Below, piece by piece: positions 1-57,124 of a stretch of 64,000 nt of DNA. This stretch comes from Lachnospiraceae bacterium (GTDB lineage Bacteria; Bacillota; Clostridia; Lachnospirales; Lachnospiraceae): NCBI GenBank assembly GCA_045598365.1, contig JAZLLV010000056.1, positions 9,498-73,497 of the forward strand, in the 5' to 3' direction. The notes below the pieces were generated by a model that worked only from the letters and a program-made list of their open reading frames with translations, was not told where the DNA came from and searched no databases. Numbering within the stretch: position 1 is the first letter of the stretch; the number at the start of each line of letters is the position of its first letter. A program made the translations under genes and the position numbers.

Positions 1-753
1 GCGGTTAACGGTGATAATATTTTCGGACTGACTTTGAACGAGGCTGTTGCACTTATTAAGGGACCGGAAAATACGGATGTTAATCTCACAATCTACAGAG
101 AGGGTGAAAAGGACTATCTGGAATTTACGGTTACCAGAGGCAGAGTCGAATCCCCCACTGTTGAATATGAGATGAAGGAAGACCAAATCGGTTATATAAA
201 GATTACCGAATTTGACGATGTTACCACCACACAGTTCTCAAATGCTTATAAGGATCTTAACAATCAGAAAATGAAGTCCCTGATTATTGATTTAAGAAGC
301 AACGGCGGTGGAAACCTTGATACCGTACTTGATATTGCCAGGGAAATGCTTCCTGCAGGAATCATTACCTACACGGAAGATAAAAACGGACATCGTGAAG
401 AATATATGTGTAAGGGAAAAAGCGTAATAAAGATTCCTGTGGTTGTGCTTACAAACGGCTATACCGCAAGTGCATCGGAACTTCTTACGGGCGCCCTTAA
501 GGATTACGGCCTTGCCACTGTAATGGGCACTAATACCTTCGGAAAGGGAATCGTACAGACCATATATCCTCTTGAGGACGGTAGTGGTCTTAAGATTACC
601 ACCAGCAGATACTATACACCTTCCGGCATATGCATTCACGGAGACGGAATTGCACCTGATATAGAAATTGAGTTTGACTCAGAACTTTATTATGGTGAGG
701 ACAAAATAGATAATCAGCTTAATGCGGCTATTGATTACTTAAAGAAAAAATAA
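1..753 (+). CDS. ctpA: C-terminal processing peptidase (S41A, CtpA/CtpB family), 5'-truncated by the window edge
   Basis: Frame is open from base 1. Tail of a PDZ domain, then S41 motifs IDLRSNGGG, TASASE (catalytic Ser) and GKG. Confidence 0.9.
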   Translation, partial: AVNGDNIFGLTLNEAVALIKGPENTDVNLTIYREGEKDYLEFTVTRGRVESPTVEYEMKEDQIGYIKITEFDDVTTTQFSNAYKDLNNQKMKSLIIDLRSNGGGNLDTVLDIAREMLPAGIITYTEDKNGHREEYMCKGKSVIKIPVVVLTNGYTASASELLTGALKDYGLATVMGTNTFGKGIVQTIYPLEDGSGLKITTSRYYTPSGICIHGDGIAPDIEIEFDSELYYGEDKIDNQLNAAIDYLKKK

Positions 754-758
754 GATGG

Positions 759-787
759 AAAATGCTTTCCAAAAGAAAGCATTTTTT
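759..787 (+). terminator. Intrinsic terminator after ctpA
   Basis: 11-bp stem AAAATGCTTTC / GAAAGCATTTT with a 5-nt loop, running into a T tract. Confidence 0.75.
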
Positions 788-862
788 GTCATATATTAAG
801 CATTTATATTGCTATTTTTAAACAAATGGGGATGTTATTATATTTACGAAAAGGGGTAAAGT

Positions 863-2014
863 ATGTATCGAAACATTTATGTTGAGATAGATAATTCCAA
901 AATACTTAGTAACAGCAAACTTTTATGTGAGACCTTTCCTCACAAATACAATATTGCTGTTATAAAGGGTAATGCCTACGGCCATGGCTATGGTATTATC
1001 CCAGCCTTGATTAAAGGCGGAATGAATGCCTTTGCTGTCTCTTCTTTGGATGAGGCAATAGAGGTAAGGAAATACGATAAAGAGCATCCGGTGATAATGC
1101 TTCAGCCGGTTTCGAAAATATATTACGGACTTTGTTCCGCGGAGAACATATCGGTTCTTGTAAATGATACAGACACTCTTGAAGATGTAATTAAAAGTGG
1201 CGAGAGTCTCAAGGTACAGTTTAAGGTAAACTGCGGAATGAACAGGCTTGGCTACCGTGACGGTAGTCTCCTTTCAAGAGATGTGGACAGGGCTATGAAA
1301 TGCGACAAGGTGCAGGTGGAAGGCATTTTCTCACATTTTCATACATCAGGCCTTACAGATAACGAATACGCAGACAATCGCAGGAGATTTGAGGAAATTG
1401 TTAAGGACATAGATTTATCAAAGATTCCCATGGTTCACCTTGATAAGACACAGACAATTCTCCTTCACAAAACTCCGGATTACTGTAACGGAGCACGTTT
1501 CGGACTGTCATTGTACGGATTTCCGTCCATATATCCCTATGATGCTTCACCCAAGGGCAAGCTTCTTACCCTGAGGCGGGATATAAAGAACAGGCTCAAT
1601 CATGTGGAGCCCTCAATTGAAATAAAGAATTACGACTTAAAGCCTGCCTTTGCTTTGAAAACTGAGGTTATAGAGATTAACGTGGTTCCCGCAGGAGAGT
1701 ATGTGGGCTATGGTCTTAAATATAAAACCACAAAGGCAGAAAGAATTGCAGTTATAGATGCAGGATACGCAGACGGAATCGGAAGAAAACGTTCCGGAAC
1801 AAAGGTATGTATCAATGGCAGAAAGTATCCCATTGTGGGAGAAGTCGGCATGGGTATGTGCCAGGTACAGGTGGATGACAATGTAAAAAAGGGAGATGCG
1901 GTTACTGTTTTGGGGGCAGACATTTCCATAAAGGCCATTGCCTCGGCGCTTGAAACCACCACCTATGAAGTATTAACAAATATTAATTCACAGATTCAGA
2001 GAAGATATCTTTGA
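863..2014 (+). CDS. alr: PLP-dependent amino-acid racemase, alanine racemase fold; substrate uncertain
   Basis: PLP-lysine motif [23 protein letters not shown], catalytic Tyr in GEYVGYG, and TTTYEV. Divergent at the ANSAA and GRICMDQ positions. Confidence 0.85.
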   Translation: MYRNIYVEIDNSKILSNSKLLCETFPHKYNIAVIKGNAYGHGYGIIPALIKGGMNAFAVSSLDEAIEVRKYDKEHPVIMLQPVSKIYYGLCSAENISVLVNDTDTLEDVIKSGESLKVQFKVNCGMNRLGYRDGSLLSRDVDRAMKCDKVQVEGIFSHFHTSGLTDNEYADNRRRFEEIVKDIDLSKIPMVHLDKTQTILLHKTPDYCNGARFGLSLYGFPSIYPYDASPKGKLLTLRRDIKNRLNHVEPSIEIKNYDLKPAFALKTEVIEINVVPAGEYVGYGLKYKTTKAERIAVIDAGYADGIGRKRSGTKVCINGRKYPIVGEVGMGMCQVQVDDNVKKGDAVTVLGADISIKAIASALETTTYEVLTNINSQIQRRYL

Positions 2015-3255
2015 TGGAGAAAAGAATAATGACTCACAACGTTGTTTTGCTGGGTTCTGATATAAATGCCTATTATATGGCAAGATGCTACTACGAATTG
2101 TTTAACGAACCCGTTGATATGATAGCCGCAGAGAAGATTCGTTTTACCGAGTTTTCTTCGATTGTAAATATACAGTATCACCCGAATCTTAAGAATGAAG
2201 AAGTCTTTGTAGAGACACTTATTGAGTATGGTAAAGTCCATCTTGATAAGGGAAGGAGTCTGGTTATTCCCTGCCATGATGTATATGTGGATCTTCTTTT
2301 GAGAAAAGCCAACCAGCTTACTTCCTACTTTGTTTTTAACTGTCCTTCTTTTGAAATTGCAGACAGTTTTCTTGATAAGGAAAAATTTTATAAGAAGTAT
2401 GCAGGCAGCAAGCTTAAGTTCGCAAGAACCGAGTATTATGACTGCTCTTTAGAGGAAACAGCGCCCATTCCCGTGGATATGTTTTATCCCCTTATCATTA
2501 AGCCTGGCGACGCTATTGAGTATTACAGACATGTTTTTCCCGGTCAGCCCAAGGTATTTAAGGCAACGACCCCTGATAATGCCGTCAATTTTATCAATAA
2601 GGTTAAGGCATCAGGCTATAAGGGAACTCTTCTTGTGCAGGAATTCATTCAGGGAGATGATACGAATCTTTTTGACTCGATTTTCTATTGCAACAAAAAG
2701 GGAAAGGCTGAGCTTGCCACCTTTGCGCAGATTGGCCTTCAGGAGCATTCTCCTTCAGCCATAGGAAATGCCACTGTTTTAATTAACGGCTACAATCAGT
2801 ATGGCGGAACTGAAGAAATAATAGGGGAACTTAAGGAATTTCTTGAGGACCTTGGCTATACGGGCTTCTGTGAGTTTGACATAAAGTACGACAACAGAGA
2901 CAAGACCTTTAAGGTTATGGAAATCAATCCAAGGCAGGCCCGTTCAAGCTACTATCTTGCGGCTCTTGGTCACAACCTTATTGAGTATCTTTACAATGAT
3001 GTTTTCGAAAATGAAGAGCGTGAGTTTACTCTTCTTAAGGACGAATATCTTCTGACAATGGTTCCAAAATGCATCGTCAGAAAATACATCTTTAACACCG
3101 AATATAAGAAGAAAGCGCTTAAACTCTGGCGCAAACACAAAAAGTGCGATCCCTTAAGATTTTCAAAGGAAAAATCAATTAAGCACAGACTGTATCTTAT
3201 GCTCAGAGCTTACAGATACAGACAGAAGTACAGAAAGTTTTCCAACACCATATAG
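2014..3255 (+). CDS. ATP-grasp carboxylate-amine ligase, D-aspartate ligase (Asl/YxbA) family
   Basis: LLGSDINAYYMAR N-terminus, LIIKP, QEFIQGDD and GYTGFCEFDIKYDNRDKTFKVMEINPRQARSSYY match the Asl family from memory. ATG 2014 overlaps the racemase stop (TGATG); an alternative start at 2029 has a GGAGA SD. Confidence 0.8.
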   Translation: MEKRIMTHNVVLLGSDINAYYMARCYYELFNEPVDMIAAEKIRFTEFSSIVNIQYHPNLKNEEVFVETLIEYGKVHLDKGRSLVIPCHDVYVDLLLRKANQLTSYFVFNCPSFEIADSFLDKEKFYKKYAGSKLKFARTEYYDCSLEETAPIPVDMFYPLIIKPGDAIEYYRHVFPGQPKVFKATTPDNAVNFINKVKASGYKGTLLVQEFIQGDDTNLFDSIFYCNKKGKAELATFAQIGLQEHSPSAIGNATVLINGYNQYGGTEEIIGELKEFLEDLGYTGFCEFDIKYDNRDKTFKVMEINPRQARSSYYLAALGHNLIEYLYNDVFENEEREFTLLKDEYLLTMVPKCIVRKYIFNTEYKKKALKLWRKHKKCDPLRFSKEKSIKHRLYLMLRAYRYRQKYRKFSNTI

Positions 3256-3271
3256 GAAAGAGAGATATTCT

Positions 3272-5137
3272 ATGTGTGGATTTGCAGGTTTTATCGATAA
3301 CCTGAATACAGATAAAAAAAGAACCGTTATTAAGGAGATGAGCGATTCCATTGCCCACAGAGGTCCCGACGGAGAGGGCTTCTATGTGGATGACAGTATT
3401 GCTATGGGATTCAGACGCTTAAGCATCATTGACCTTAATACAGGAGACCAGCCCCTTTATAACGAGGACAAGTCTCTGGTTATTAACTTTAACGGTGAAA
3501 TTTATAACTACAGGGAATTAAGAGAAGATCTTATTTCCAAGGGCCATGTTTTTTATACAACCAGTGATACGGAGTCAATTCTTCATGGATTTGAAGAATA
3601 TGGAGAAAAAATTGTTGAAAAGCTTCGCGGTATGTTTGCCTTTGTTATCTGGAATAAGAATACAGGTGAACTTTTCGGAGCAAGAGACCCCTTTGGAATT
3701 AAGCCGTTTTACTATTACAATACCCCGGAGCTTTTTGCTTACGGCTCTGAAATAAAGGCTTTTCTAAGACACCCGGATTTTAAGAAGGAACTGAACAAGG
3801 ACGCACTTAAAACCTATATGTGCTTCCAGTATTCGGTTCCCACAGATACCTTTTTTAAGAATGTATATAAGTTAAATCCCGGTCATTACTTTTCGTTTAA
3901 GGATGGTGTCTTAAAGACAGAAGAGTACTTTAAGATTGAGTACAGAAACAACGAGGACGATTTAGATACAACAGTTGATAAGATAAACAACATAATGAAG
4001 GAAAGCATCGAATATCACAAAATCAGTGATGTTGAAGTAGGGGCTTTTCTTTCAAGCGGTGTTGATTCAAGCTACATAGTTGCAAATGCCAATGTTGACA
4101 AGGCCTTCACAGTGGGCTTTAAAAGCGATCACTTCGATGAGACAGAGGATGCCCACGCCCTTTGCGAAATACTTGGCATGAAGCATACAAGAAAGCATAT
4201 AACGGCAGACATGTTCTTTGATGCGCTGCCCACTGTTCAGTACCACTCCGATGAACCCCATGCGAATCTTTCCGCTGTGCCGCTTTACTTTCTGGCAAAT
4301 ATGGCGGCAAAGGAGGTTAAGGTAGTTCTTTCCGGTGAGGGTGCGGATGAACTGTTCGGAGGATATTATGAATACGAGACTCCTCCGGAATATGCAAAAT
4401 ACAATAAGATTCCTTTCCCTGTAAGACGCTTCTTAAAAGGCGTTGCGGAGAAGCTTCCCAACATGAAAGGAAGACATTTCCTTATTCGTGCAGGCTCCAC
4501 TTTGGAAGAATCCTACATCGGTCAGGCTTTTATCATGAACAACGAAGAGGCCGACAAGCTTCTAAAGCCCGACTACAGAGGGGGAAAGCTTTACAGCGAA
4601 GTTACTGTTCCTATTTTTGAAAAGGTCAAGGATAAGCCGGACCTTTTGAAGAAGATGTATCTTGATATGAATCTTTGGCTGCCCTATGACATTCTTTTGA
4701 AGGCTGACAAGATGACCATGGCGAATTCCCTGGAGTTAAGAGTTCCCTTCCTTGACAAGGAAGTGTTCAGGGTGAGCGAAGAGGTTCCTTTTAAGTATAT
4801 TATTAAGGATTATATTACCAAATATGCCTTCCGCCAGGCTGCGAATAAGACAATCCCCGAGGAATGGGCAAAGCGCAAGAAATTAGGCTTCCTTGTTCCT
4901 TTCAGAGAATGGCTTAAGGAAGATAAATGGTATGCCAAGGTAAAAGAGCAGTTTACTAAAGATTGGGTAAGCGAATTTTTCGATGTTGATGCAATAGTAC
5001 ATCTTCTTGACGAGCACAAAGCGGGAAAATGGAGCAATCAGAGAAAAATCTACACGATATATTCTTTTTTGATTTGGTATGAAGTATTTTTTATAAACGG
5101 TGCGATTGCACCAAAGGCGCCGGCTACAGAGGCGTAA
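3272..5137 (+). CDS. asnB: Asparagine synthase (glutamine-hydrolysing) family amidotransferase
   Basis: N-terminal nucleophile MCG, HRGPD, RRLSIIDL, FNGEIYNY, LSSGVDSS, LSGEGADELFGGY, SLELRVPFLD. Confidence 0.93.
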   Translation: MCGFAGFIDNLNTDKKRTVIKEMSDSIAHRGPDGEGFYVDDSIAMGFRRLSIIDLNTGDQPLYNEDKSLVINFNGEIYNYRELREDLISKGHVFYTTSDTESILHGFEEYGEKIVEKLRGMFAFVIWNKNTGELFGARDPFGIKPFYYYNTPELFAYGSEIKAFLRHPDFKKELNKDALKTYMCFQYSVPTDTFFKNVYKLNPGHYFSFKDGVLKTEEYFKIEYRNNEDDLDTTVDKINNIMKESIEYHKISDVEVGAFLSSGVDSSYIVANANVDKAFTVGFKSDHFDETEDAHALCEILGMKHTRKHITADMFFDALPTVQYHSDEPHANLSAVPLYFLANMAAKEVKVVLSGEGADELFGGYYEYETPPEYAKYNKIPFPVRRFLKGVAEKLPNMKGRHFLIRAGSTLEESYIGQAFIMNNEEADKLLKPDYRGGKLYSEVTVPIFEKVKDKPDLLKKMYLDMNLWLPYDILLKADKMTMANSLELRVPFLDKEVFRVSEEVPFKYIIKDYITKYAFRQAANKTIPEEWAKRKKLGFLVPFREWLKEDKWYAKVKEQFTKDWVSEFFDVDAIVHLLDEHKAGKWSNQRKIYTIYSFLIWYEVFFINGAIAPKAPATEA

Positions 5138-5150
5138 AAAGGAGACAAGT

Positions 5151-6416
5151 ATGAATAAATCCGTATTTGAAGAAAATGAATCAGTTGTAAGGTCCTACTG
5201 CAGAAAGTACCCTGTTGTGTTTGAAAAAGCAAAGGGCTCATACATTTATGATACCGAGGGAAAGGCATATCTTGACTTCCTTGCAGGCTGCGGTGCCCTT
5301 AACTATGGTCACAACAATGACGAAATCAAGGGAGCGGTTATCGAATACCTTATGCAGGATAACATTACCCATGCAATGGATATGTATACCAGGGCAAAGG
5401 CAGAATTCATTGATACCTTCAAAAACAATATTTTAGATAAAAGCGGACTTCAGTATAAGATTATGTTCTGCGGTTCCACAGGAACAAATGCTGTGGAAGC
5501 AGCGCTTAAGCTTTGCAGAAAGAATAAAAAACGTTCCAACATAGTTGCATTTATGGGTGCGTTCCACGGAATGACCTTAGGAAGCCTTGCACTTACCACC
5601 GACCAGACCAGCAGAGAGGGTGCAGGTGTGTCTCTTGACAATGTGACCTTCATTCCTTTTGAAAACGGCTTCTCCGGCAAGTTTGATTCTTTGGACTATC
5701 TTGAGAATATTCTTCTTGATGATCACTCCGGAATTGAAAAGCCCGCAGCAGTATTCATTGAAACTGTTCAGGCCGAAGGCGGAATTAATGTTGCAAGTGT
5801 TGAATGGCTTAAGCGCCTTGAAAAGCTTTGTCATGACAATGATATTCTTCTCGTGGCTGATGAAATTCAGGTGGGCTGCTCCAGAACAGGAACCTTCTTC
5901 TCCTTTGAAAGAGCAGGAATCAAGCCCGATATGGTTACCCTCAGTAAGTCCATCGGTGGCTATGGATTCCCTATGTCTTTGTTACTTATAAAAGAAGAAC
6001 TTGATATTTGGAAACCTGCGGAGCACAACGGAACCTTCAGAGGAAATCAGGTTGCTTTTGTAGCTGCCAAGAAAGCAATTGAAGTAAATGTAAACAGCAA
6101 TCTTAACGCAGAAGTAAGAAGAAAAGGTGAGCTTGTAAAGGCCTTTGTGGAAAAGAACCTTCTTCCTCTTGATGAAAACATTTCCTTAAGAGGACTTGGC
6201 CTTATCTGGGGTATCGATTTCGGAAAACTTTCAGGCGGCAGCGAAATTGCCCACAGGATAGCTGATAAATGCTTTACAAAGAATATGATAATCGAGCGTG
6301 CCGGAAGAGGTGACTCGGTTGTTAAGATTCTTCCTCCCCTTACCATTACGGATGAAGAACTTACAAAGGGACTTAATATTATTCTTGAATCAACAAAGGA
6401 AGTATTGGGCAGGTAA
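5151..6416 (+). CDS. ectB: Diaminobutyrate--2-oxoglutarate transaminase (EctB/Dat, class III aminotransferase)
   Basis: ESVVRSYCR, GCGALNYGHN, FHGMTLGSL, ETVQAEGG, DEIQVG, PLP-Lys in SKSIGG, EHNGTFRGN. AAGGAG SD before ATG 5151. Confidence 0.9.
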   Translation: MNKSVFEENESVVRSYCRKYPVVFEKAKGSYIYDTEGKAYLDFLAGCGALNYGHNNDEIKGAVIEYLMQDNITHAMDMYTRAKAEFIDTFKNNILDKSGLQYKIMFCGSTGTNAVEAALKLCRKNKKRSNIVAFMGAFHGMTLGSLALTTDQTSREGAGVSLDNVTFIPFENGFSGKFDSLDYLENILLDDHSGIEKPAAVFIETVQAEGGINVASVEWLKRLEKLCHDNDILLVADEIQVGCSRTGTFFSFERAGIKPDMVTLSKSIGGYGFPMSLLLIKEELDIWKPAEHNGTFRGNQVAFVAAKKAIEVNVNSNLNAEVRRKGELVKAFVEKNLLPLDENISLRGLGLIWGIDFGKLSGGSEIAHRIADKCFTKNMIIERAGRGDSVVKILPPLTITDEELTKGLNIILESTKEVLGR

Positions 6417-7865
6417 ATGAAACTCAGTGAACTGATTCCCACAGAGTGGGATGCGGATATAGAAGTAATAACCGATGACTCCCGCACCAAAGGCAAAAAT
6501 ATTCTTTTTGTGTGCGTGAAGGGACTTACCGTTGACGGACACAGCTTTGCGGCAAAAGCTGTGGAGAACGGTGCGGTTGCAATTGTGTGTGAGCACATTG
6601 TTGAAGGAATTTCAGTACCTCAGGTTGTTGTGAAAGACTCCCAGAGGGCAATGAATGAAATCCTTAATAAGTTTTACGGTGACCCTCTTTCAAAGCTTAA
6701 GCTTATAGGTGTAACAGGTACTGACGGCAAGACAACCACTTCCGAAATGATGTACCAGATTCTTAACGGTCTTTCAAAAAAAACCGGATACATCGGAACC
6801 AACGGCATACGTTCCGAGCACTACACTCAGGACAACGAATACACCACTCCTCTTCAGGGAGATTTGTTTAAGGCACTTAACGGTTTTTCCGAAGATTCCT
6901 GTGAATTTGTTTCAATGGAAGCTTCAGGCGAAAGACTTGGCACGGGAAAAATGGATGGTGTGGAATTTGATGCCTCCATATACACCAATCTTACAAGAGA
7001 TGCTTTGGACCTTTTTAAGACCATGGAGAACTATGGCAGTGCAAAGGCAAAGCTTATGGAATACACCAAAAAGTCCGGAGTCTGTGTCATAAACAAGGAT
7101 GATAAGTATTCGCCCATGTTTATTGAAAAGGCAAACGGTAAGGTTATCACCTATGGTGTGGAAGATAAGACGGCAGATGTATATGCAACCGATGTAAATA
7201 TTGCATATAATAATCTTTCCTTTACCATGAACGGTGTTCTTGGAACCCATAAGATAAAATGCAGCCTTTCAGGCATTTTCAATGTTTATAATATTATGGC
7301 AGTGATTTCCGCCCTTAACCATTTCGGCATTGAAGTGGAAACCCTTGTTAAGCAGGTCTCACTGCTTAAACCCATTGAAGCCAGACAGACTGTTGTGGAC
7401 TTTGGCCAGCCCTTCAGGGTAATTGTGGACTACGCACATACCGCCAATGCAGTAAAAAATCTTGTGGAATATATTAAATCCACTCTTACGGACGGCTTTT
7501 TACGTGTGGTTGTGGGCGCCGGCGGTTCAAGAGACATAAACAGAAGAACCGACATGGCCGAGTATTGCACCAAAATGGCGGATTACAATTATTTTACCAT
7601 AGAAGATGCCAGATTTGAGGATCCGCAGATGCTGGTGGAAACCATGGTTTCTACGGTTCCGACTGCTCATAATTACGAATTGATTGTGGACAGGGATGAG
7701 GCGATTGCCAAGGCTATCCACGATGCCAAGCCCGGTGATGCAATATTAATCCTTGGTAAAGGGGCTGAGCGTTATATGCTTACCAACGGAGTTCAGGTAG
7801 AACGCCCCAACGATATTGAAAGAGCCGCAATGGTTCTTAAAGAAATGGGTTATGAAGAAAAATAA
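6417..7865 (+). CDS. murE: MurE-family Mur ligase (third stem-peptide residue) with atypical specificity loop
   Basis: DSR, DGH, P-loop GVTGTDGKTTT, TNLTRD, VDYAHT, GGSRD, GKG. EDARFEDP occupies the DNPRxEDP position. Starts immediately after the ectB stop. Confidence 0.85.
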   Translation: MKLSELIPTEWDADIEVITDDSRTKGKNILFVCVKGLTVDGHSFAAKAVENGAVAIVCEHIVEGISVPQVVVKDSQRAMNEILNKFYGDPLSKLKLIGVTGTDGKTTTSEMMYQILNGLSKKTGYIGTNGIRSEHYTQDNEYTTPLQGDLFKALNGFSEDSCEFVSMEASGERLGTGKMDGVEFDASIYTNLTRDALDLFKTMENYGSAKAKLMEYTKKSGVCVINKDDKYSPMFIEKANGKVITYGVEDKTADVYATDVNIAYNNLSFTMNGVLGTHKIKCSLSGIFNVYNIMAVISALNHFGIEVETLVKQVSLLKPIEARQTVVDFGQPFRVIVDYAHTANAVKNLVEYIKSTLTDGFLRVVVGAGGSRDINRRTDMAEYCTKMADYNYFTIEDARFEDPQMLVETMVSTVPTAHNYELIVDRDEAIAKAIHDAKPGDAILILGKGAERYMLTNGVQVERPNDIERAAMVLKEMGYEEK

Positions 7866-7936: not shown

Positions 7937-9547
7937 ATGGTTAATGTAATCAGAAAGCAAGATAATATAGTTAGAAAAACCGTATGCATGTTGATTTTTA
8001 GCCTTATTGTATCTTTTTGCTTTGTTGCAGGTAAAATATATGACACTGAGTTGACAGATTCCATTTTTTCTGTTTTTTTTGTGAAAAAATACATATTTTT
8101 TGTTCTGTTTTTTTTTACTACACTCTTCTTTTCTTGCTTTATTTATACGTTTATCAAGTCGAATAATGACAAGAAGCGCGTTCTTTTTATAAAAAGTGGC
8201 CCAAGTAAAAGACTCGTGTGTCTATTGCCTTTATGCTGCTACGCTATTTCGTTACTGTCAATTTTTCCCGGGATTTTTTCATACGATTGTTGGCAGGAAT
8301 GGGATATGATTGAAAAAGGAATGCTTTCTTCGCATCATCCGGTATTGCATGTGCTTATTTTGGGTGGCTTTACAAGCCTATCAAATTATATATTTGGTAG
8401 TGGTAATGTGGGAATCTTTTTGTATGTGTCTCTACAAATATTCTTTTTCTTGATTGTGTTTAGATATATTTTTCTATATATGGATGAAAAGGGTACCAGT
8501 CCATTGTCACAATGGACTGCGTTGTGTTTTGTCTCATTATCTCCAATTATCAATTTATTTGTTTTGGCTACTTCAAAGGACAGTTTGTTTGCTATATTTG
8601 AGCTTCTATTTGCCTTTGAGTCTGTGCGTTTATACAAAGAAAAAAGCTATTTGGAAGAAAAGAAAAATGTAGTAATATTTCTATTTGCCTCACTTGGCAC
8701 GATGATTTTTAGAAACAATGGATTATATATTGTCGTGTTAACGAATCTCATTATGTTGTTTCTCTGTAAGGGACGACGATTAAAATTGTTGATACCATAC
8801 GCGATTATTGGCGTAATTTATCTGGCATATACAGGGCCGTTTTACAATTTGCTTTCGGTAGAAGCTGGAAGCAAACGAGAAATGCTTTCTGTACCAATTC
8901 AGCAACTTGCCAGAGTGCATCAGTACGATTTTGACGATTTTACTAAAAATGAATTAAACATAATGTATTCGGTTATTGATAAAGAGAATTGGAACCAATA
9001 TGTTCCAACTTGTGCAGATGCAGTAAAAAACGGATTCGACGATGAAGCGTTTTCAAAAGCTGGTAAAGATTTTCTGAAAATATGGGTGAAACATGGGATA
9101 AATCATCCTGCGACTTATGCGAATGCATTTTTGATTAATACTGTTGACTATTGGTATCCGTTAGCTGTGAATGACAATTACGCTTGGTTATATGGAAAAG
9201 ATGAAAAAATAGGTGATTTTTTCGATTATAGGGTTGCAGAGCCGGGAAATGAGGTAGTAATAATTAAACCTTTGCATGATTTTTATTATTACATTTCGAC
9301 GGATTTACTTGTTACAAGCAAAATAATTCCTGCGCTGTTCTTAAATCCGGGTGTATATTTATTGCTGTGGATTGCATGCATGTTTTGGGACATTGCGAAT
9401 AAGATAACTTCGCGTGCGCCGATTCACATAGTGTTGTTATTTAACTTTTGGACAGTTCTTTTAGGTCCGATGGTTCAAGTAAGGTATATTGTCGTTTTGT
9501 ACTTTATAGTTCCATTGTGGTTTATGCATCAGCCTGCGGAATGCTAA
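7937..9547 (+). CDS. Multi-pass membrane protein, DUF6020-like (putative GT-C-fold glycan-modifying enzyme)
   Basis: Many hydrophobic helices; motifs PGIFSYD, HHPVLH, KDSLFA, FRNNG, SVPIQQLARV, GPMVQVRY. Clear paralog at 55517-57124. Visibly AT-richer than its flanks. Confidence 0.65.
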   Translation: MVNVIRKQDNIVRKTVCMLIFSLIVSFCFVAGKIYDTELTDSIFSVFFVKKYIFFVLFFFTTLFFSCFIYTFIKSNNDKKRVLFIKSGPSKRLVCLLPLCCYAISLLSIFPGIFSYDCWQEWDMIEKGMLSSHHPVLHVLILGGFTSLSNYIFGSGNVGIFLYVSLQIFFFLIVFRYIFLYMDEKGTSPLSQWTALCFVSLSPIINLFVLATSKDSLFAIFELLFAFESVRLYKEKSYLEEKKNVVIFLFASLGTMIFRNNGLYIVVLTNLIMLFLCKGRRLKLLIPYAIIGVIYLAYTGPFYNLLSVEAGSKREMLSVPIQQLARVHQYDFDDFTKNELNIMYSVIDKENWNQYVPTCADAVKNGFDDEAFSKAGKDFLKIWVKHGINHPATYANAFLINTVDYWYPLAVNDNYAWLYGKDEKIGDFFDYRVAEPGNEVVIIKPLHDFYYYISTDLLVTSKIIPALFLNPGVYLLLWIACMFWDIANKITSRAPIHIVLLFNFWTVLLGPMVQVRYIVVLYFIVPLWFMHQPAEC

Positions 9548-14712: not shown

Positions 14713-15459
14713 ATGAAACTGGAAGAATTCTTTGCAAAATACAGAAAAGTTGCCATTGCTTTTTCGGGAGGAGTGGATTCCGCATATCTTTTGTATGCGG
14801 CGGTAAAAGCCGGAGCGGATGTTAAAGCCTATTATGTTAAATCTGCTTTTCAGCCGGAATTTGAGTATTCCGATGCCGTAAAACTTGCAGAACAGATCGG
14901 CGCCAAAATGAAAACTCTGACTGTGGACATTCTGCAAAATGAAGAAGTGAAAGCTAACCCGAAAGACAGATGCTATTACTGCAAAAAGACTATTTTTTCA
15001 ACAATAGTATATGAGGCCGCAAAGGATGGTTATGAAGTGCTGTTGGATGGAACCAATGCCTCGGATGAGGAAGGCGACCGCCCCGGCATGAGAGCATTGA
15101 GAGAACTGACTGTTTTCTCACCCCTCAGAATTTGCGGACTTACAAAGGATGAGATACGAAGACTGTCCAAAGAAGCCGGTCTGTTTACCTGGAACAAGCC
15201 GGCATATGCCTGTCTTGCCACAAGAATTCCTACGGGCTGTGCCATCAGTAAGGATATTCTTTCTGCAACAGAAAATGCAGAGGATTACCTGTTTTCTTTA
15301 GGCTTTTCCGATTTCAGGGTCAGATATCTTAACGGAGCTGCAAAACTCCAGCTTAGAGAATCCGATTTTGAACTGATGACAAAATACAGAAAAGAAATAG
15401 TTGAGGAACTGACAAAATACTATTCAGATGTTTTTGTGGATTTGGAGGTAAGAGGATGA
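14713..15459 (+). CDS. larE: Nickel-pincer nucleotide cofactor sulfur transferase LarE
   Basis: PP-loop AFSGGVDS, RCYYCK, DGTNASD, RPG, ACLATRIP, DFRVR. Confidence 0.92.
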   Translation: MKLEEFFAKYRKVAIAFSGGVDSAYLLYAAVKAGADVKAYYVKSAFQPEFEYSDAVKLAEQIGAKMKTLTVDILQNEEVKANPKDRCYYCKKTIFSTIVYEAAKDGYEVLLDGTNASDEEGDRPGMRALRELTVFSPLRICGLTKDEIRRLSKEAGLFTWNKPAYACLATRIPTGCAISKDILSATENAEDYLFSLGFSDFRVRYLNGAAKLQLRESDFELMTKYRKEIVEELTKYYSDVFVDLEVRG

Positions 15460-55516: not shown

Positions 55517-57124
55517 ATGCTTAATAAGCTGACAACAAAAGATTGCATATATGCGGGCATAGGCGGATTTATTATTTCTTTGATGCTCGTTCTGGGTGCT
55601 TTTGTCAAAAGAAGCGGAACTGTTTTTGAACATGGTATAAAAATTCTGTATATTTTGCCGGTATTTGCCGTTTGTACAGGTGTTCTTTTGCTTTTGTTTA
55701 TGCTTATGAAAAGAATGGGCAGGACAACTGTCTGCCCTCTTCCGAATCGCCTTGTTAGAAGCTCCTTTGTTTATTTTGTTTTGATGTTTGTTGCAGTACT
55801 GATACTGTGGCTTCCTTCTCTTCTTGCGGTCTATCCGGGATTGTATACATATGATGCATCATGGCAGCATGATATGTATAAGGATAACATCGTTACGGAA
55901 CACCATCCTGTGTGGCACACTTACCTTTTGGGGTGGTGTACGGAAACCTTTAGAAATGCGGACGGAATGAATAAAGGTGTATTTTTGTACACTGTAATTC
56001 AAATGATTATTATGGGTATTGGCTGTGCATATATTTTGTATCTGCTGCACAGGAGAAAAGAACCTGCATGGATGCATGTGTTTGCATTGGCATTCTTTTG
56101 TCTTTATCCGCCATTCGTAATATTTGTGTTCACAAATACAAAAGACAGCATTTTCGCAATAGCAATAGCTGATTTTCTGCTGTTAAATCTGGATATCATA
56201 GAAAATAGGGATGCTTTTTTTGAAAAAATATCCAATATGATTTCGTGGATTATATTATTCTTTTTGATATCTACACTTAGAAATAATGCAGTATATGCGC
56301 TGATAATTGTACTTCCTTTTTTTCTGTGGAAAGTACTTTTTAAGTCAGGAAAAAATCTTAAGGCGCTTTTGATGGTGTCGATTGCTTTGGTTATATATCT
56401 TGTTTATAAATACCCGATAACCAATGCAATAACCGTGGAAGGAATAGCTGAAAGAGAAAAACTTTCGGTACCCTGCCAGCAGGTTATGAGAGTTTACACA
56501 TACCATAGAAATGAGTTAGAGGATGAAGAGAAAGCAGCCATAAGGCGGGCTTTTGAATCAAAGCGCTGGAATATGTATTACCAGCCCCAGATTGCTGACC
56601 CTGCAAAGGGCGCTTTTGATATTGAACTTTTTGAAGAAAAAAAGAGCGAATGCGTGAAGTTCTGGCTGAATCTTGGTAAGAAGTATCCAACGGAATATAT
56701 AGATTCTTTCATTGAAAATACCTATGGTTTCTGGTACCCCTGGCCCAAATATGTTTCATATTACGATGGAAGGACAGCCTACACTCCCATAGAGTGCAAA
56801 GATCCGGCTGCCATGAACAGTAAACTTCCCGCGCTTCTTAACTTTTTTAAACTGTTTGAAAACAGCAGTGTAGTGGATGGAAATGTTTTTATTTCCTGGA
56901 TTTTTTCGCCTGCTCTATTTTTATATATAGCTTTCTTTGTGGCTTTGGTTGTCATTAAAGAGAGAGGATTAAAATATATTTTGCCGTTTTTGTTTATTGC
57001 ACTTTTGTGGGCAACATATTTGCTTGGTCCGGTTGCAGCAGTCAGGTATGCATTTTTTATGTTCCCGTGTGTTGTTGTCTGGCCTGCTTTTATCAGGTCA
57101 TGTAAACAGGCAGATTTAGTATAG
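55517..57124 (+). CDS. Multi-pass membrane protein, DUF6020-like
   Basis: YPGLYTYD, HHPVWHT, TKDSIFA, LRNNA, SVPCQQVMRV, LLGPVAAVRY; paralog of 7937-9547. Confidence 0.65.
   Translation: MLNKLTTKDCIYAGIGGFIISLMLVLGAFVKRSGTVFEHGIKILYILPVFAVCTGVLLLLFMLMKRMGRTTVCPLPNRLVRSSFVYFVLMFVAVLILWLPSLLAVYPGLYTYDASWQHDMYKDNIVTEHHPVWHTYLLGWCTETFRNADGMNKGVFLYTVIQMIIMGIGCAYILYLLHRRKEPAWMHVFALAFFCLYPPFVIFVFTNTKDSIFAIAIADFLLLNLDIIENRDAFFEKISNMISWIILFFLISTLRNNAVYALIIVLPFFLWKVLFKSGKNLKALLMVSIALVIYLVYKYPITNAITVEGIAEREKLSVPCQQVMRVYTYHRNELEDEEKAAIRRAFESKRWNMYYQPQIADPAKGAFDIELFEEKKSECVKFWLNLGKKYPTEYIDSFIENTYGFWYPWPKYVSYYDGRTAYTPIECKDPAAMNSKLPALLNFFKLFENSSVVDGNVFISWIFSPALFLYIAFFVALVVIKERGLKYILPFLFIALLWATYLLGPVAAVRYAFFMFPCVVVWPAFIRSCKQADLV

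What the first reader, a model, noticed from the sequence alone, without database searches (positions are those of the whole stretch)
6417..7865. MurE with a remodelled substrate pocket (EDAR loop, several conserved His lost)
Seen: TIEDARFEDP where meso-DAP enzymes have SDNPRxEDP. Also SGERL for SSHAL, RDALDLF for RDHLDFH, and GKGAERY for GKGHETY, with the P-loop and YxxAK carbamyl-Lys motif retained. Established: DNPR recognises the distal centre of meso-DAP, and Lys/Orn-adding enzymes deviate there (DNPA, DDPR). Inference: a longer Glu in place of Asp could reach the shorter side chain of Dab, and Asp in place of Asn argues against meso-DAP.
Basis: partly seen in the sequence, partly recalled or inferred. 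Interest (0 to 1): 0.72.

Follow-up and report, generated by a model that had tools for sequence, protein, structure and literature searches.

The report
Probable diaminobutyrate-adding MurE cell-wall operon
The only MurE cell-wall ligase of this rumen/gut Lachnospiraceae bacterium has a rebuilt amino-acid pocket and is fused into an operon with the enzyme that makes 2,4-diaminobutyrate, so this genus probably builds a diaminobutyrate-type peptidoglycan that has not been described in Firmicutes and is currently mis-annotated as the meso-DAP type.

Summary
ORF 6417-7865 (+) is a full-length MurE and the only one in a 97%-complete genome. It reads EDAR where meso-DAP enzymes read DNPR. It also has Ala where every other Mur ligase examined has the Mg-binding His of the DHLD motif.

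- murE starts directly after the stop codon of an EctB/Dat-type diaminobutyrate transaminase.
- It closes an operon: Alr-like racemase paralogue, ATP-grasp ligase, AsnB amidotransferase, Dat, MurE. This order is kept in about 25 species of one Lachnospiraceae genus.
- A sister EDAR clade (about 50% identity) occurs in small-genome gut Bacilli, again mostly next to Dat. None of those genomes has DapF.
- Dat is found in 6 of 7 EDAR genomes but in only 4 of 120 other Lachnospiraceae genera. No genome has ectoine synthase.
- The EDAR clade is monophyletic, nested among (D/E)DPR enzymes and apart from the DNPR group.
- Within the family, only this genus has it, which points to acquisition and replacement of the native MurE.

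The substrate remains untested. L-Lys or L-Orn, with Dab used only in a branch, remains possible. I rate this a new variant of a known kind, with fairly high interest.

The parts
759..785 (+). Hairpin followed by a T-run after the S41 peptidase gene. Likely terminator that sets the upstream limit of the operon.
   Evidence: Terminator-like site in the scan; sequence read. Consensus match only.
817..844 (+). Promoter-like site (TTTAAA-16-TATATT) ahead of the racemase gene.
   Evidence: Weak: promoter-like sites are no more frequent here than in shuffled sequence.
863..2014 (+). Alanine-racemase-fold PLP racemase paralogue (Alr2). PLP-Lys and catalytic Tyr are kept, and there is an insertion of about 35 aa. 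Substrate unknown.
   Evidence: Pfam Ala_racemase_N/C. TIGR00492 scores 235 bits as two separate stretches. The genome has a canonical Alr elsewhere (C28, 365 bits), and Alr2 is only 27% identical to it. PDB alignment.
2011..3255 (+). ATP-grasp carboxylate-amine ligase (414 aa), overlapping the racemase gene by 4 nt. Proposed to add a branch or bridge amino acid to the peptidoglycan precursor.
   Evidence: No Pfam hit. AF2 model has pLDDT 91.8. Foldseek top hits are carbamoyl-phosphate synthetase, L-amino-acid ligases 3vot/3wo1/4wd3, PylC 4ffl and PurK. One homologue is named 'D-aspartate ligase' by IMG. Present in 7 of 9 EDAR-MurE genomes.
3272..5137 (+). Glutamine-dependent AsnB-type amidotransferase; starts MCGF, so Cys2 is kept.
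   Evidence: Pfam GATase_7 + Asn_synthase. TIGR01536 scores 521 bits. N-terminus read. A second AsnB-like gene lies elsewhere in the genome (C46, 28% identity).
5151..6416 (+). L-2,4-diaminobutyrate:2-oxoglutarate transaminase (EctB/Dat type). The ORF is open from GTG 5100; the likely start is ATG 5151, behind AAAGGAGA. Its TAA stop abuts the murE ATG.
   Evidence: NF006733 scores 604 bits (cut-off 438) and TIGR02407 scores 573.8 bits (cut-off 552.2). Junction read. No ectoine synthase in this or 8 related genomes.
6417..7865 (+). [quoted passage not shown]
   Evidence: TIGR01085 scores 386.6 bits (cut-off 257.3) and all three Mur ligase domains are present. It is the only hit above cut-off in the genome. 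The other Mur-ligase-domain genes read as MurC, MurD, MurF and two FolC, assigned by eye from sequence and neighbours.
7602..7613 (+). Codons for E396-D397-A398-R399, the loop equivalent to DNPR / DNPA / DDPR.
7002..7004 (+). Codon for A196 in RDALD. All 149 other representative MurEs have His here, as do MurC, MurD and MurF of this genome; the position aligns with the Mg2+-binding His183 of MurD.
6930..6932 (+). Codon for E172 in SGE, replacing the His of SSH. The change is shared with the wider SSE clade and may stand in as a metal ligand.
   Evidence: The compensation idea is inference only.
7937..9547 (+). DUF6020 polytopic membrane protein downstream of murE. Membership of the module is doubtful.
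   Evidence: Pfam DUF6020. Not found beside murE in most related loci. GC is 34% against 41.6% for the cluster. A paralogue lies at about 55817-57082 in the window.

Best explanation
Genes 863-7865 form one operon that rebuilds the peptide part of peptidoglycan around L-2,4-diaminobutyrate (Dab).

Proposed steps:
1. Dat makes L-Dab from aspartate semialdehyde.
2. [quoted passage not shown] In its pocket DNPR has become EDAR. The Asn that holds the distal carboxylate of meso-DAP is now Asp, and the first acid is lengthened to Glu, giving an acidic pocket for a short cationic side chain.
3. The racemase paralogue supplies a D-amino acid, possibly D-Dab.
4. The ATP-grasp ligase attaches that D-amino acid to the precursor, either on the gamma-amino group of Dab (A-type bridge) or on the alpha-carboxyl of D-Glu (B-type bridge).
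5. AsnB amidates a free carboxyl of the product.

The module was acquired horizontally by the ancestor of one Lachnospiraceae genus and replaced the native DAP-type MurE.

Shown here: gene identities, operon structure, uniqueness of MurE, phylogenetic position, co-occurrence and synteny.
Inferred: the substrate of MurE and the roles of the racemase, the ATP-grasp ligase and AsnB.
For: 1. Dat is identified above curated equivalog cut-offs. Its stop abuts or overlaps the murE start here and in distant lineages.
2. The order Alr2-ATPgrasp-AsnB-Dat-MurE is conserved in about 25 species-level genomes and in the isolate YSD2013.
3. Dat orthologues occur in 6 of 7 EDAR genomes but in 4 of 120 other genera of the family, where they are not next to murE.
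4. There is no ectoine synthase in any of 9 genomes, so Dat is not there for ectoine.
5. DapF is missing from all six non-Lachnospiraceae EDAR genomes, so the clade as a whole cannot depend on meso-DAP made by the usual route.
6. This is the sole MurE of a 97%-complete genome and is under purifying selection, so it is the working cell-wall enzyme.
7. The EDAR clade is monophyletic (aLRT 99), nested among DDPR/EDPR/YNPR enzymes and separated from the DNPR group. Its best solved relatives are the Lys-adding S. aureus and T. maritima enzymes.
8. Literature: Asn and Arg of DNPR bind the meso-DAP carboxylate, and an acidic pocket favours a cationic side chain (PMC3829189).
9. The nearest non-EDAR relatives (YNPR, DDPR) have no Dat or ATP-grasp neighbours.
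10. Only this genus among 300 genera of the family has the EDAR type; all other genera have MurEs at most 36% identical.
11. The ATP-grasp fold is confirmed and is closest to amino-acid ligases. It co-occurs with EDAR MurE in 7 of 9 genomes.
Against: - There is no biochemical or cell-wall composition data for any organism carrying the module.
- Arg399 is retained. In E. coli the equivalent Arg binds the meso-DAP carboxylate (although the Lys-adding T. maritima enzyme, DDPR, keeps it too).
- AsnB next to murE is the known signature of meso-DAP amidation in L. plantarum (PMC4155827), and this genus does have DapF.
- NCBIfam's DAP-ligase equivalog NF001126 scores above its cut-off (421 against 373 bits).
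- No aspartate-semialdehyde dehydrogenase was found in the small EDAR genomes or in this assembly. It is present in two genomes carrying the same operon (one same-genus genome and the isolate YSD2013) and in G305. The source of Dat's substrate is therefore unexplained in those genomes.
- One EDAR genome (CAG:884) has no Dat.
- Dat also co-occurs with the ATP-grasp ligase, so Dab could be that enzyme's substrate rather than MurE's.
- E-D-x-R (as EDPR) occurs in other MurEs that have no Dat link.
Confidence: 0.55

Rival explanations
1. MurE(EDAR) adds L-Lys or L-Orn (or another non-Dab residue) at position 3, as its (D/E)DPR relatives presumably do. Dab, made by Dat and perhaps racemised by Alr2, is used only by the ATP-grasp ligase as a branch or bridge residue.
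For: - The closest solved enzymes add Lys.
- E/D-D-x-R motifs are widespread among uncharacterised relatives that have no Dat link.
- The ATP-grasp ligase co-occurs with the module in 7 of 9 genomes and sits in the same operon with a racemase.
- An Alr-fold racemase suits basic amino acids: lysine and broad-spectrum racemases appear among the PDB relatives.
Against: - Dat is coupled to murE specifically (stop/start abutting or overlapping). The pair occurs without an adjacent ATP-grasp gene in L033/L034 and L127.
- Genome G303 has no ATP-grasp homologue at all, yet keeps Dat-MurE next to FemAB genes.
- In the peptidoglycan types I recall from Schleifer and Kandler, Dab in the bridge always goes with L-Dab at position 3 (my own knowledge, not checked here).
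Confidence: 0.2
2. MurE still adds meso-DAP (or LL-DAP), and the adjacent AsnB amidates it as AsnB1 does in L. plantarum. The motif changes are neutral or compensated drift, and Dat serves another pathway.
For: - Arg399 is retained.
- AsnB-murE colocalisation is known for meso-DAP amidation (PMC4155827).
- DapF is present in this genus.
- NF001126 (DAP ligase) scores above its cut-off, and public annotations call the protein a DAP ligase.
Against: - The Asn that binds the DAP carboxylate is replaced by Asp.
- All six non-Lachnospiraceae EDAR genomes lack DapF.
- The clade lies outside the DNPR group.
- Tight, recurrent Dat coupling would be left unexplained.
- The other 283 genera of the family with a detectable MurE kept a MurE at most 36% identical to this one (their motifs were not read), so replacement suggests a change of function.
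Confidence: 0.08
3. The operon makes something other than peptidoglycan, for example a Dab-containing secondary polymer or peptide, and this Mur ligase homologue works on a non-murein substrate.
For: - Mur-ligase and ATP-grasp enzymes also build other amide-linked products (cyanophycin synthetase and FolC appear among the weaker hits).
- In another Lachnospiraceae genus, Dat sits next to a giant ORF whose family was not identified; from its size it may be an NRPS.
Against: - It is the only MurE in the genome, while MurC, MurD and MurF are all present.
- It matches MurE models end to end above cut-off.
- In the sister clade it lies next to MurF and FemAB genes.
Confidence: 0.03

Closest known systems
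L-Lys-adding MurE of Staphylococcus aureus (PDB 4C12/4C13, DNPA) and L/D-Lys-adding MurE of Thermotoga maritima (PDB 4BUB, DDPR)
   Same: Same three-domain architecture, P-loop, carbamyl-Lys and the Glu of GKGxE. These are the best solved-structure matches (250 and 232 bits). The pocket is acidic, the Asn of DNPR is not used for a carboxylate, and T. maritima shares x-D-x-R.
   Different: - The first acid is Glu rather than Asp, and Pro is replaced by Ala (EDAR).
- The Mg-binding His of DHLD is Ala, and the His of SSH is Glu.
- The gene is coupled to a Dab-forming transaminase rather than relying on the lysine pool.
meso-DAP-adding MurE (E. coli 1E8C, M. tuberculosis 2WTZ; DNPR)
   Same: Same family and reaction chemistry. 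The Arg of the motif is retained. Public annotation and NCBIfam NF001126 file the protein here.
   Different: - The Asn that binds the distal carboxylate is Asp.
- The clade is phylogenetically separate from the DNPR group.
- Relatives of the clade live in genomes without DapF.
L-Dab-adding activity of B2-gamma Microbacteriaceae (Clavibacter/'Corynebacterium insidiosum'; shown in extracts by Wyke and Perkins 1975, recalled from memory)
   Same: The proposed reaction is the same: L-Dab added to UDP-MurNAc-dipeptide.
   Different: The organisms are Actinobacteria, not Firmicutes. To my knowledge no sequence determinants have been described. I could not fetch those MurE sequences to compare motifs.
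racD-aslA (Asp racemase + ATP-grasp D-aspartate ligase) with AsnH amidation in Lactococcus lactis/Enterococcus faecium, and asnB1-murE in Lactobacillus plantarum (PMC4155827)
   Same: The logic is the same: a racemase gene next to an ATP-grasp ligase gene for a D-amino-acid side branch, plus an AsnB-family amidotransferase acting on the precursor. AsnB lies next to murE, as asnB1 does.
   Different: - The racemase is of the PLP-dependent alanine-racemase fold, not the Asp/Glu racemase family.
- The ATP-grasp protein matches no curated Asl model.
- All genes are in a single operon with Dat and MurE.

Membership tests
MurE (UDP-N-acetylmuramyl-tripeptide synthetase, TIGR01085) | Full-length match above the curated cut-off, with Mur_ligase N, M and C domains | tested here: met
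   386.6 bits against a cut-off of 257.3. PF01225, PF08245 and PF02875 are all present.
MurE (UDP-N-acetylmuramyl-tripeptide synthetase, TIGR01085) | ATP P-loop GxxGKT and carbamylatable Lys (YxxAK) | tested here: met
   GTDGKT at 101-106 and K210 in NYGSAK. Carbamylation itself cannot be tested here.
MurE (UDP-N-acetylmuramyl-tripeptide synthetase, TIGR01085) | Mg2+-binding His of the DHxD motif (MurD His183; one of the Mur-family invariants) | tested here: not met
   RDALD has Ala196. His is present in all 149 other representatives and in MurC, MurD and MurF of this genome. The role of the His comes from PMC9780078. The protein is still filed as MurE because it is the sole, conserved MurE of the genome.
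MurE (UDP-N-acetylmuramyl-tripeptide synthetase, TIGR01085) | Acts as the cell's position-3 ligase (no other MurE present) | tested here: met
   It is the only hit above cut-off in a 97.4%-complete genome. The other Mur-domain genes read as MurC, MurD, MurF and two FolC, assigned by eye from sequence and neighbours.
meso-DAP-specific MurE | DNPR motif, with Asn and Arg binding the distal carboxylate | tested here: not met
   EDAR: Asn is replaced by Asp and Arg is kept.
meso-DAP-specific MurE | Host genome can make meso-DAP (DapF present) | tested here: inconclusive
   DapF is present in this genus (G000, G260, G307) but absent from all six other EDAR-type genomes.
L-Dab-adding MurE (no curated family exists) | Preference for L-2,4-diaminobutyrate in a ligase assay, and Dab at position 3 of muropeptides | not testable with these tools
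   Only indirect evidence: Dat coupling, co-occurrence and pocket changes.
Diaminobutyrate-2-oxoglutarate transaminase (EctB/Dat; TIGR02407, NF006733) | Score above the curated equivalog/subfamily cut-offs | tested here: met
   573.8 against 552.2 bits and 604.1 against 438 bits. Ornithine and acetylornithine transaminase models score far below their cut-offs.
D-aspartate ligase (Asl) type ATP-grasp side-chain ligases | ATP-grasp fold | tested here: met
   AF2 pLDDT 91.8. Foldseek probability 1.00 to CPSase, L-amino-acid ligases, PylC and PurK.
D-aspartate ligase (Asl) type ATP-grasp side-chain ligases | Sequence membership, and partnership with an aspartate racemase | tested here: inconclusive
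   There is no curated model hit, only one IMG name 'D-aspartate ligase' on a 52%-identical homologue. The partner racemase is of the alanine-racemase fold, not the Asp/Glu type. No verified Asl sequence was available for comparison.
AsnB-family peptidoglycan amidotransferases (AsnB1/LtsA/AsnH) | N-terminal Cys2 glutaminase plus Asn_synthase domain, and colocalisation with peptidoglycan genes | tested here: met
   MCGF N-terminus, GATase_7 + Asn_synthase domains, TIGR01536 at 521 bits. The gene lies between the ATP-grasp and Dat/murE genes. The target carboxyl is unknown.

The most novel reading that the evidence does not exclude
The operon encodes a complete type-B (B2-gamma-like) peptidoglycan programme in Firmicutes:
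- MurE(EDAR) installs L-Dab at position 3.
- The Alr paralogue is a Dab racemase.
- The ATP-grasp protein puts the D-diamino acid on the alpha-carboxyl of D-Glu. As far as I know, the gene for this step has not been identified in type-B walls.
- AsnB amidates the free carboxyl of the bridge residue, whose D-centre mimics that of meso-DAP.

The whole package moves horizontally and can overwrite a DAP-type wall, which would remove the iE-DAP ligand of NOD1 from a group of gut and rumen bacteria.
Probability: 0.18. Interest if true: 0.85.

Novelty: new variant of a known kind. Interest (0 to 1): 0.68.

Why it matters
- **Annotation.** Position 3 of the stem peptide defines the peptidoglycan chemotype, the cross-linking chemistry and what host receptors see (NOD1 senses DAP-type fragments). 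Wall types of most Lachnospiraceae are unknown (review table in PMC11382707), and I found no report of Dab walls in Clostridia or Bacilli in the searched literature. If the reading is right, a sequence signature (EDAR plus an adjacent Dat) would let Dab-type walls be predicted from genomes, and the blanket annotation 'DAP ligase' on hundreds of database entries could be corrected.
- **Evolution.** It would show that a core wall determinant can be swapped by horizontal transfer of one operon.
- **Enzymology.** It offers a natural MurE that works without the 'invariant' Mg-binding His, which bears on Mur ligase mechanism and inhibitor design.
- **New enzymes.** It gives candidate genes (the ATP-grasp ligase and the Alr paralogue) for uncharacterised branch-adding steps.
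- **Wider pattern.** Other notes of this scan describe Dat genes beside MurE-like or MurT-like ligases in Saccharibacteria and gut Clostridia, so Dab use in walls may be broader than thought. These notes are leads and have not been checked.

Tried and rejected
- **Second MurE.** I looked for one that would make this gene a paralogue with a side function. None exists. The other Mur-domain genes read as MurC, MurD, MurF and two FolC, and there is no MurT.
- **Ectoine role for Dat.** Rejected: no ectoine synthase in 9 genomes.
- **The 527-529-aa 'second Mur ligase' beside murE in the sister clade.** It is MurF with an N-terminal membrane extension, not a second MurE.
- **Dat in four other Lachnospiraceae genera.** It is not next to murE there. 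In one genus it sits beside an ORF of more than 2,658 aa that may be an NRPS. These are unrelated uses.
- **Aspartate-semialdehyde dehydrogenase.** Neither the asd_B nor the asd_EA model, nor a tblastn with the same-genus Asd, finds it in this assembly or in the small genomes. This is left as unexplained; for G000 an assembly gap is likely.
- **PDB sequence search with the ATP-grasp protein.** Nothing found, so a fold search was needed.
- **dN/dS.** dS is saturated, so only the qualitative statement of purifying selection stands.
- **Actinobacterial L-Dab-type MurE (Clavibacter etc.).** I could not retrieve one for motif comparison because the collections cannot be addressed by organism name.
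- **MurE structure model.** Not made. The tools return no coordinates, so pocket distances and docking could not be measured.
- **Tree.** The careful tree search did not finish, so the tree used is the quick IQ-TREE run with SH-aLRT support.
Full report
**1. The observation**

- The ORF at 6417-7865 on the + strand is real: ATG start, 482 aa.
- It matches the MurE model TIGR01085 end to end (386.6 bits; cut-off 257.3) and has the three Mur ligase domains.
  - P-loop GTDGKT (101-106)
  - EASGERL (168-174)
  - RDALDLF (194-200)
  - NYGSAK with K210
  - GGSRD (R372)
  - IEDAR (E396-D397-A398-R399)
  - GKGAERY (447-453)
- HMMER alignments to solved MurEs put EDAR opposite DNPA of S. aureus (4c12), DDPR of T. 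maritima (4bub) and DNPR of a DAP-type enzyme. SGE falls opposite SSH, and DALDLF opposite DHLDFH.
- The changes are fixed features:
  - 79 database clusters at 69-86% identity all carry EDAR, RDALD and GKGAE.
  - About 40 clusters at about 50% identity carry EDAR (rarely EDSR, EDVR or DDAR) with SSERL, but keep RDHLD.
  - Pairwise dN/dS within the genus is at most 0.1, with saturated dS.

**2. The lost histidines are not equal**

I compared the query with the 150 nearest 50%-identity cluster representatives from a 1.84-billion-protein library.
- The His of GKGHE varies widely.
- The His of SSH is Glu in a sizeable clade.
- The His of (R/Q)DHLD is present in all 149 others and is Ala only in the query.
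- MurC (EEDHLDFF), MurD (YEDHLDHY) and MurF (CHLEFL) of the same genome keep it.
- By spacing to the carbamyl-Lys (14 residues in this genome's MurD and MurE), this is the position of MurD His183, which binds Mg2+ (PMC9780078). From my own knowledge it is one of the invariants of the Mur ligase family.
- Its loss in the sole MurE of a whole genus is a real oddity.
- Because the SSE Glu arose earlier in the clade, it may have taken over as a metal ligand. That is inference only.

**3. The surroundings**

Upstream on the same strand lie:
- an S41 peptidase gene, followed by a hairpin (759-785) and a promoter-like site (817-844);
- an alanine-racemase-fold gene (863-2014);
- a 414-aa gene with no Pfam hit (2011-3255), overlapping the racemase gene by 4 nt;
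- a glutamine-dependent AsnB (3272-5137), with the MCGF N-terminus kept;
- a class-III aminotransferase (probable ATG at 5151, ending at 6416) whose TAA is directly followed by the murE ATG.

No terminator-like site interrupts the series.

Identities of the neighbours:
- *Aminotransferase.* It scores above the curated cut-offs of the diaminobutyrate-2-oxoglutarate transaminase models (NF006733: 604 against 438 bits; TIGR02407 EctB: 573.8 against 552.2 bits). Ornithine and acetylornithine transaminase models fall far below theirs.
- *Racemase.* It is a paralogue. A canonical Alr (365 bits) lies on another contig, and the two are 27% identical. The PLP-Lys and catalytic Tyr are kept.
- *414-aa protein.* It folds with pLDDT 91.8 into an ATP-grasp enzyme. 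The closest structures are carbamoyl-phosphate synthetase, L-amino-acid ligases, PylC and PurK. One homologue carries the IMG name 'D-aspartate ligase'.

**4. This is the cell's MurE**

- The assembly is 97.4% complete and has only this MurE above cut-off.
- The remaining Mur-domain genes read as MurC, MurD, MurF and two FolC, assigned by eye from sequence and neighbours. There is no MurT.

**5. Distribution**

- The order S41-Alr2-ATPgrasp-AsnB-Dat-MurE is kept in about 25 species-level Lachnospiraceae MAGs from rumen and gut. The isolate YSD2013 carries ATPgrasp-AsnB-Dat-MurE.
- I searched one genome from each of 300 genera of the same family. Only the window's own genus has this MurE (75% identity). 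In the 283 other genera with a hit, the best MurE is at most 36% identical.
- The clade at about 50% identity lies in other taxa: uncultured Bacilli, Firmicutes CAG:884, a 'Mycoplasmatota' MAG, small genomes of 0.7-1.3 Mb, and one 2.4-Mb genome. It is patchy there too, in 7 of 151 genomes of one order.
- Contexts in that clade:
  - Alr2-ATPgrasp-Dat-MurE (L029);
  - Dat-MurE alone (L033/L034, L127);
  - Alr2-ATPgrasp-AsnB-MurE with Dat elsewhere in the genome (L044) or not found (CAG:884);
  - usually a convergent MurF with a membrane extension, and in one case FemAB genes.
- GC content of the cluster equals that of the genome, so if the module was acquired, the event is old. This fits its presence throughout the genus.

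**6. Tests bearing on the substrate**

| Test | Result |
|---|---|
| Dat orthologues (E <= 1e-100) | 6 of 7 EDAR genomes; 4 of 120 other genera of the family, where Dat is not beside murE |
| Ectoine synthase | absent from all 9 genomes tested |
| DapF | present in this genus, absent from all six other EDAR genomes |
| ATP-grasp ligase | present in 7 of 9 EDAR genomes |
| Nearest non-EDAR relatives (YNPR, DDPR) | no Dat or ATP-grasp neighbours |
| Tree | EDAR clade monophyletic (SH-aLRT 99), nested in a group with DDPR/EDPR/YNPR motifs, separate from the DNPR group (98) |

- The Lachnospiraceae sequences form one supported branch inside the EDAR clade.
- Literature (PMC3829189):
  - In DNPR, Asn and Arg hydrogen-bond the distal carboxylate of meso-DAP.
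  - Asp, together with the Glu of GKGxE, holds the amino group.
  - The Lys enzyme has an acidic pocket.
- In EDAR the Asn is Asp, the first acid is Glu, and the GKGxE Glu (E451) is kept. The pocket is therefore more acidic and fits a cationic side chain without a carboxylate.

**7. Interpretation**

- The simplest account is that Dat's product, L-Dab, is the substrate of the translationally coupled MurE, and that the operon is a self-contained module for a Dab-type stem peptide with a D-amino-acid branch.
- The branch chemistry has two readings that I cannot separate:
  - *A-type.* The ATP-grasp ligase, like Asl, adds a D-amino acid from Alr2 to the gamma-amino group of Dab, and AsnB amidates a free carboxyl. 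This parallels racD-aslA plus asnH in L. lactis (PMC4155827).
  - *B-type.* Alr2 makes D-Dab. The ATP-grasp ligase couples it to the alpha-carboxyl of D-Glu, as in the B2-gamma walls of Microbacteriaceae. AsnB amidates the free carboxyl of the bridge residue.
- The B-type reading explains why a basic-amino-acid-type racemase fold sits in an operon whose only dedicated precursor is Dab. It is speculative.

**8. Caveats**

- There is no biochemical evidence.
- Arg399 is kept.
- asnB1 next to murE is the known mark of DAP amidation in L. plantarum, and this genus can make DAP.
- NCBIfam's DAP-ligase equivalog NF001126 passes its cut-off, which is why public records call the protein a DAP ligase.
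- Asd was not found in this assembly or in the small genomes. It is present in G260, G305 and G307.
- Dat co-occurs with the ATP-grasp ligase almost as well as with MurE, so Dab could be only the branch residue. Against that, Dat-MurE pairs exist without an adjacent ATP-grasp gene, and one genome has no ATP-grasp homologue at all.
E-D-P-R occurs in other MurEs that have no Dat link.

**9. Comparison with what is known, and novelty**

- The protein is a MurE by architecture, score and genomic role. It fails one family invariant (the DHxD His) and the DAP-specific DNPR motif.
- It works most like the Lys-type enzymes (DNPA, DDPR).
- L-Dab-adding activity is known from Actinobacteria (extract work of the 1970s, recalled from memory). 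I know of no sequence signature for it.
- In the searched library I found no report of Dab walls in Clostridia or Bacilli. A 2024 review lists the wall type of most Lachnospiraceae genera as unknown.
- Earlier notes of this scan describe Dat genes beside a MurE-like ligase in a Saccharibacterium and beside glutaminase-dead MurT/GatD pairs in gut Clostridia. I did not test them; they suggest a wider theme.
- I class this as a new variant of a known kind.

**10. Verdict**

- The Dab interpretation is partly supported, now mainly by genomic context.
- Confidence in L-Dab at position 3 is about 0.55.
- Interest is 0.68.

Noticed in passing
window 7002-7004 (A196 of MurE): The Mg-binding His of the Mur-ligase DHxD motif is Ala in every member of this genus. 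All 149 other representative MurEs, and MurC, MurD and MurF of the same genome, keep it. A small sister group (P0082/P0083) has Gln at this position.
   Followed up: partly
window 7937-9547 and about 55817-57082: Two DUF6020 polytopic membrane protein paralogues (30% identical). The one after murE has only 34% GC and is not conserved beside murE in related genomes.
   Followed up: partly
genome G000 (whole assembly): No aspartate-semialdehyde dehydrogenase was detectable (asd_B model, asd_EA model, tblastn with the same-genus Asd), although DapF is present. It probably falls in an assembly gap. Asd is also absent from the small EDAR-type genomes G301-G304 and G306, which nevertheless keep Dat.
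   Followed up: partly
L029 10267-11856 (-), L127 9350-10939 (-): In the small-genome Bacilli, MurF carries an N-terminal extension of about 170 aa that appears hydrophobic (by eye), which suggests it is membrane-anchored. It lies convergent to the EDAR-type murE.
   Followed up: partly
L127 10977-16004: A FemAB-family gene lies directly after MurF in a genome that has Dat-MurE but no ATP-grasp homologue; three further ORFs of 373-411 aa follow it and were not scanned. This suggests an alternative, tRNA-dependent bridge on the same position-3 residue.
   Followed up: partly
L120 3505-12757: In another Lachnospiraceae genus, a Dat orthologue (59% identity) is followed by an open reading frame of more than 2,658 aa that runs off the locus. 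From its size it may be an NRPS, which would be an unrelated use of Dab; its family was not checked.
   Followed up: no
L126 1783-4325: In genome G301, the Dat gene that is detached from murE lies near a phage-type integrase gene and a Mob_Pre plasmid recombination gene. This hints that Dat is carried on a mobile element there.
   Followed up: no
window 34-753: The S41 C-terminal processing peptidase gene matches only positions 99-330 of the 335-position prc model (TIGR00225). The listed TTG start is therefore probably not the true start, and the gene likely begins before the window. It is syntenic with the operon throughout the genus but is separated from it by a hairpin.
   Followed up: no
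window 14713-15459: A PP-loop ATPase-like protein (weak hits to tRNA methyltransferase, QueC and NAD synthase families) lies downstream of uvrA. It was not examined.
   Followed up: no
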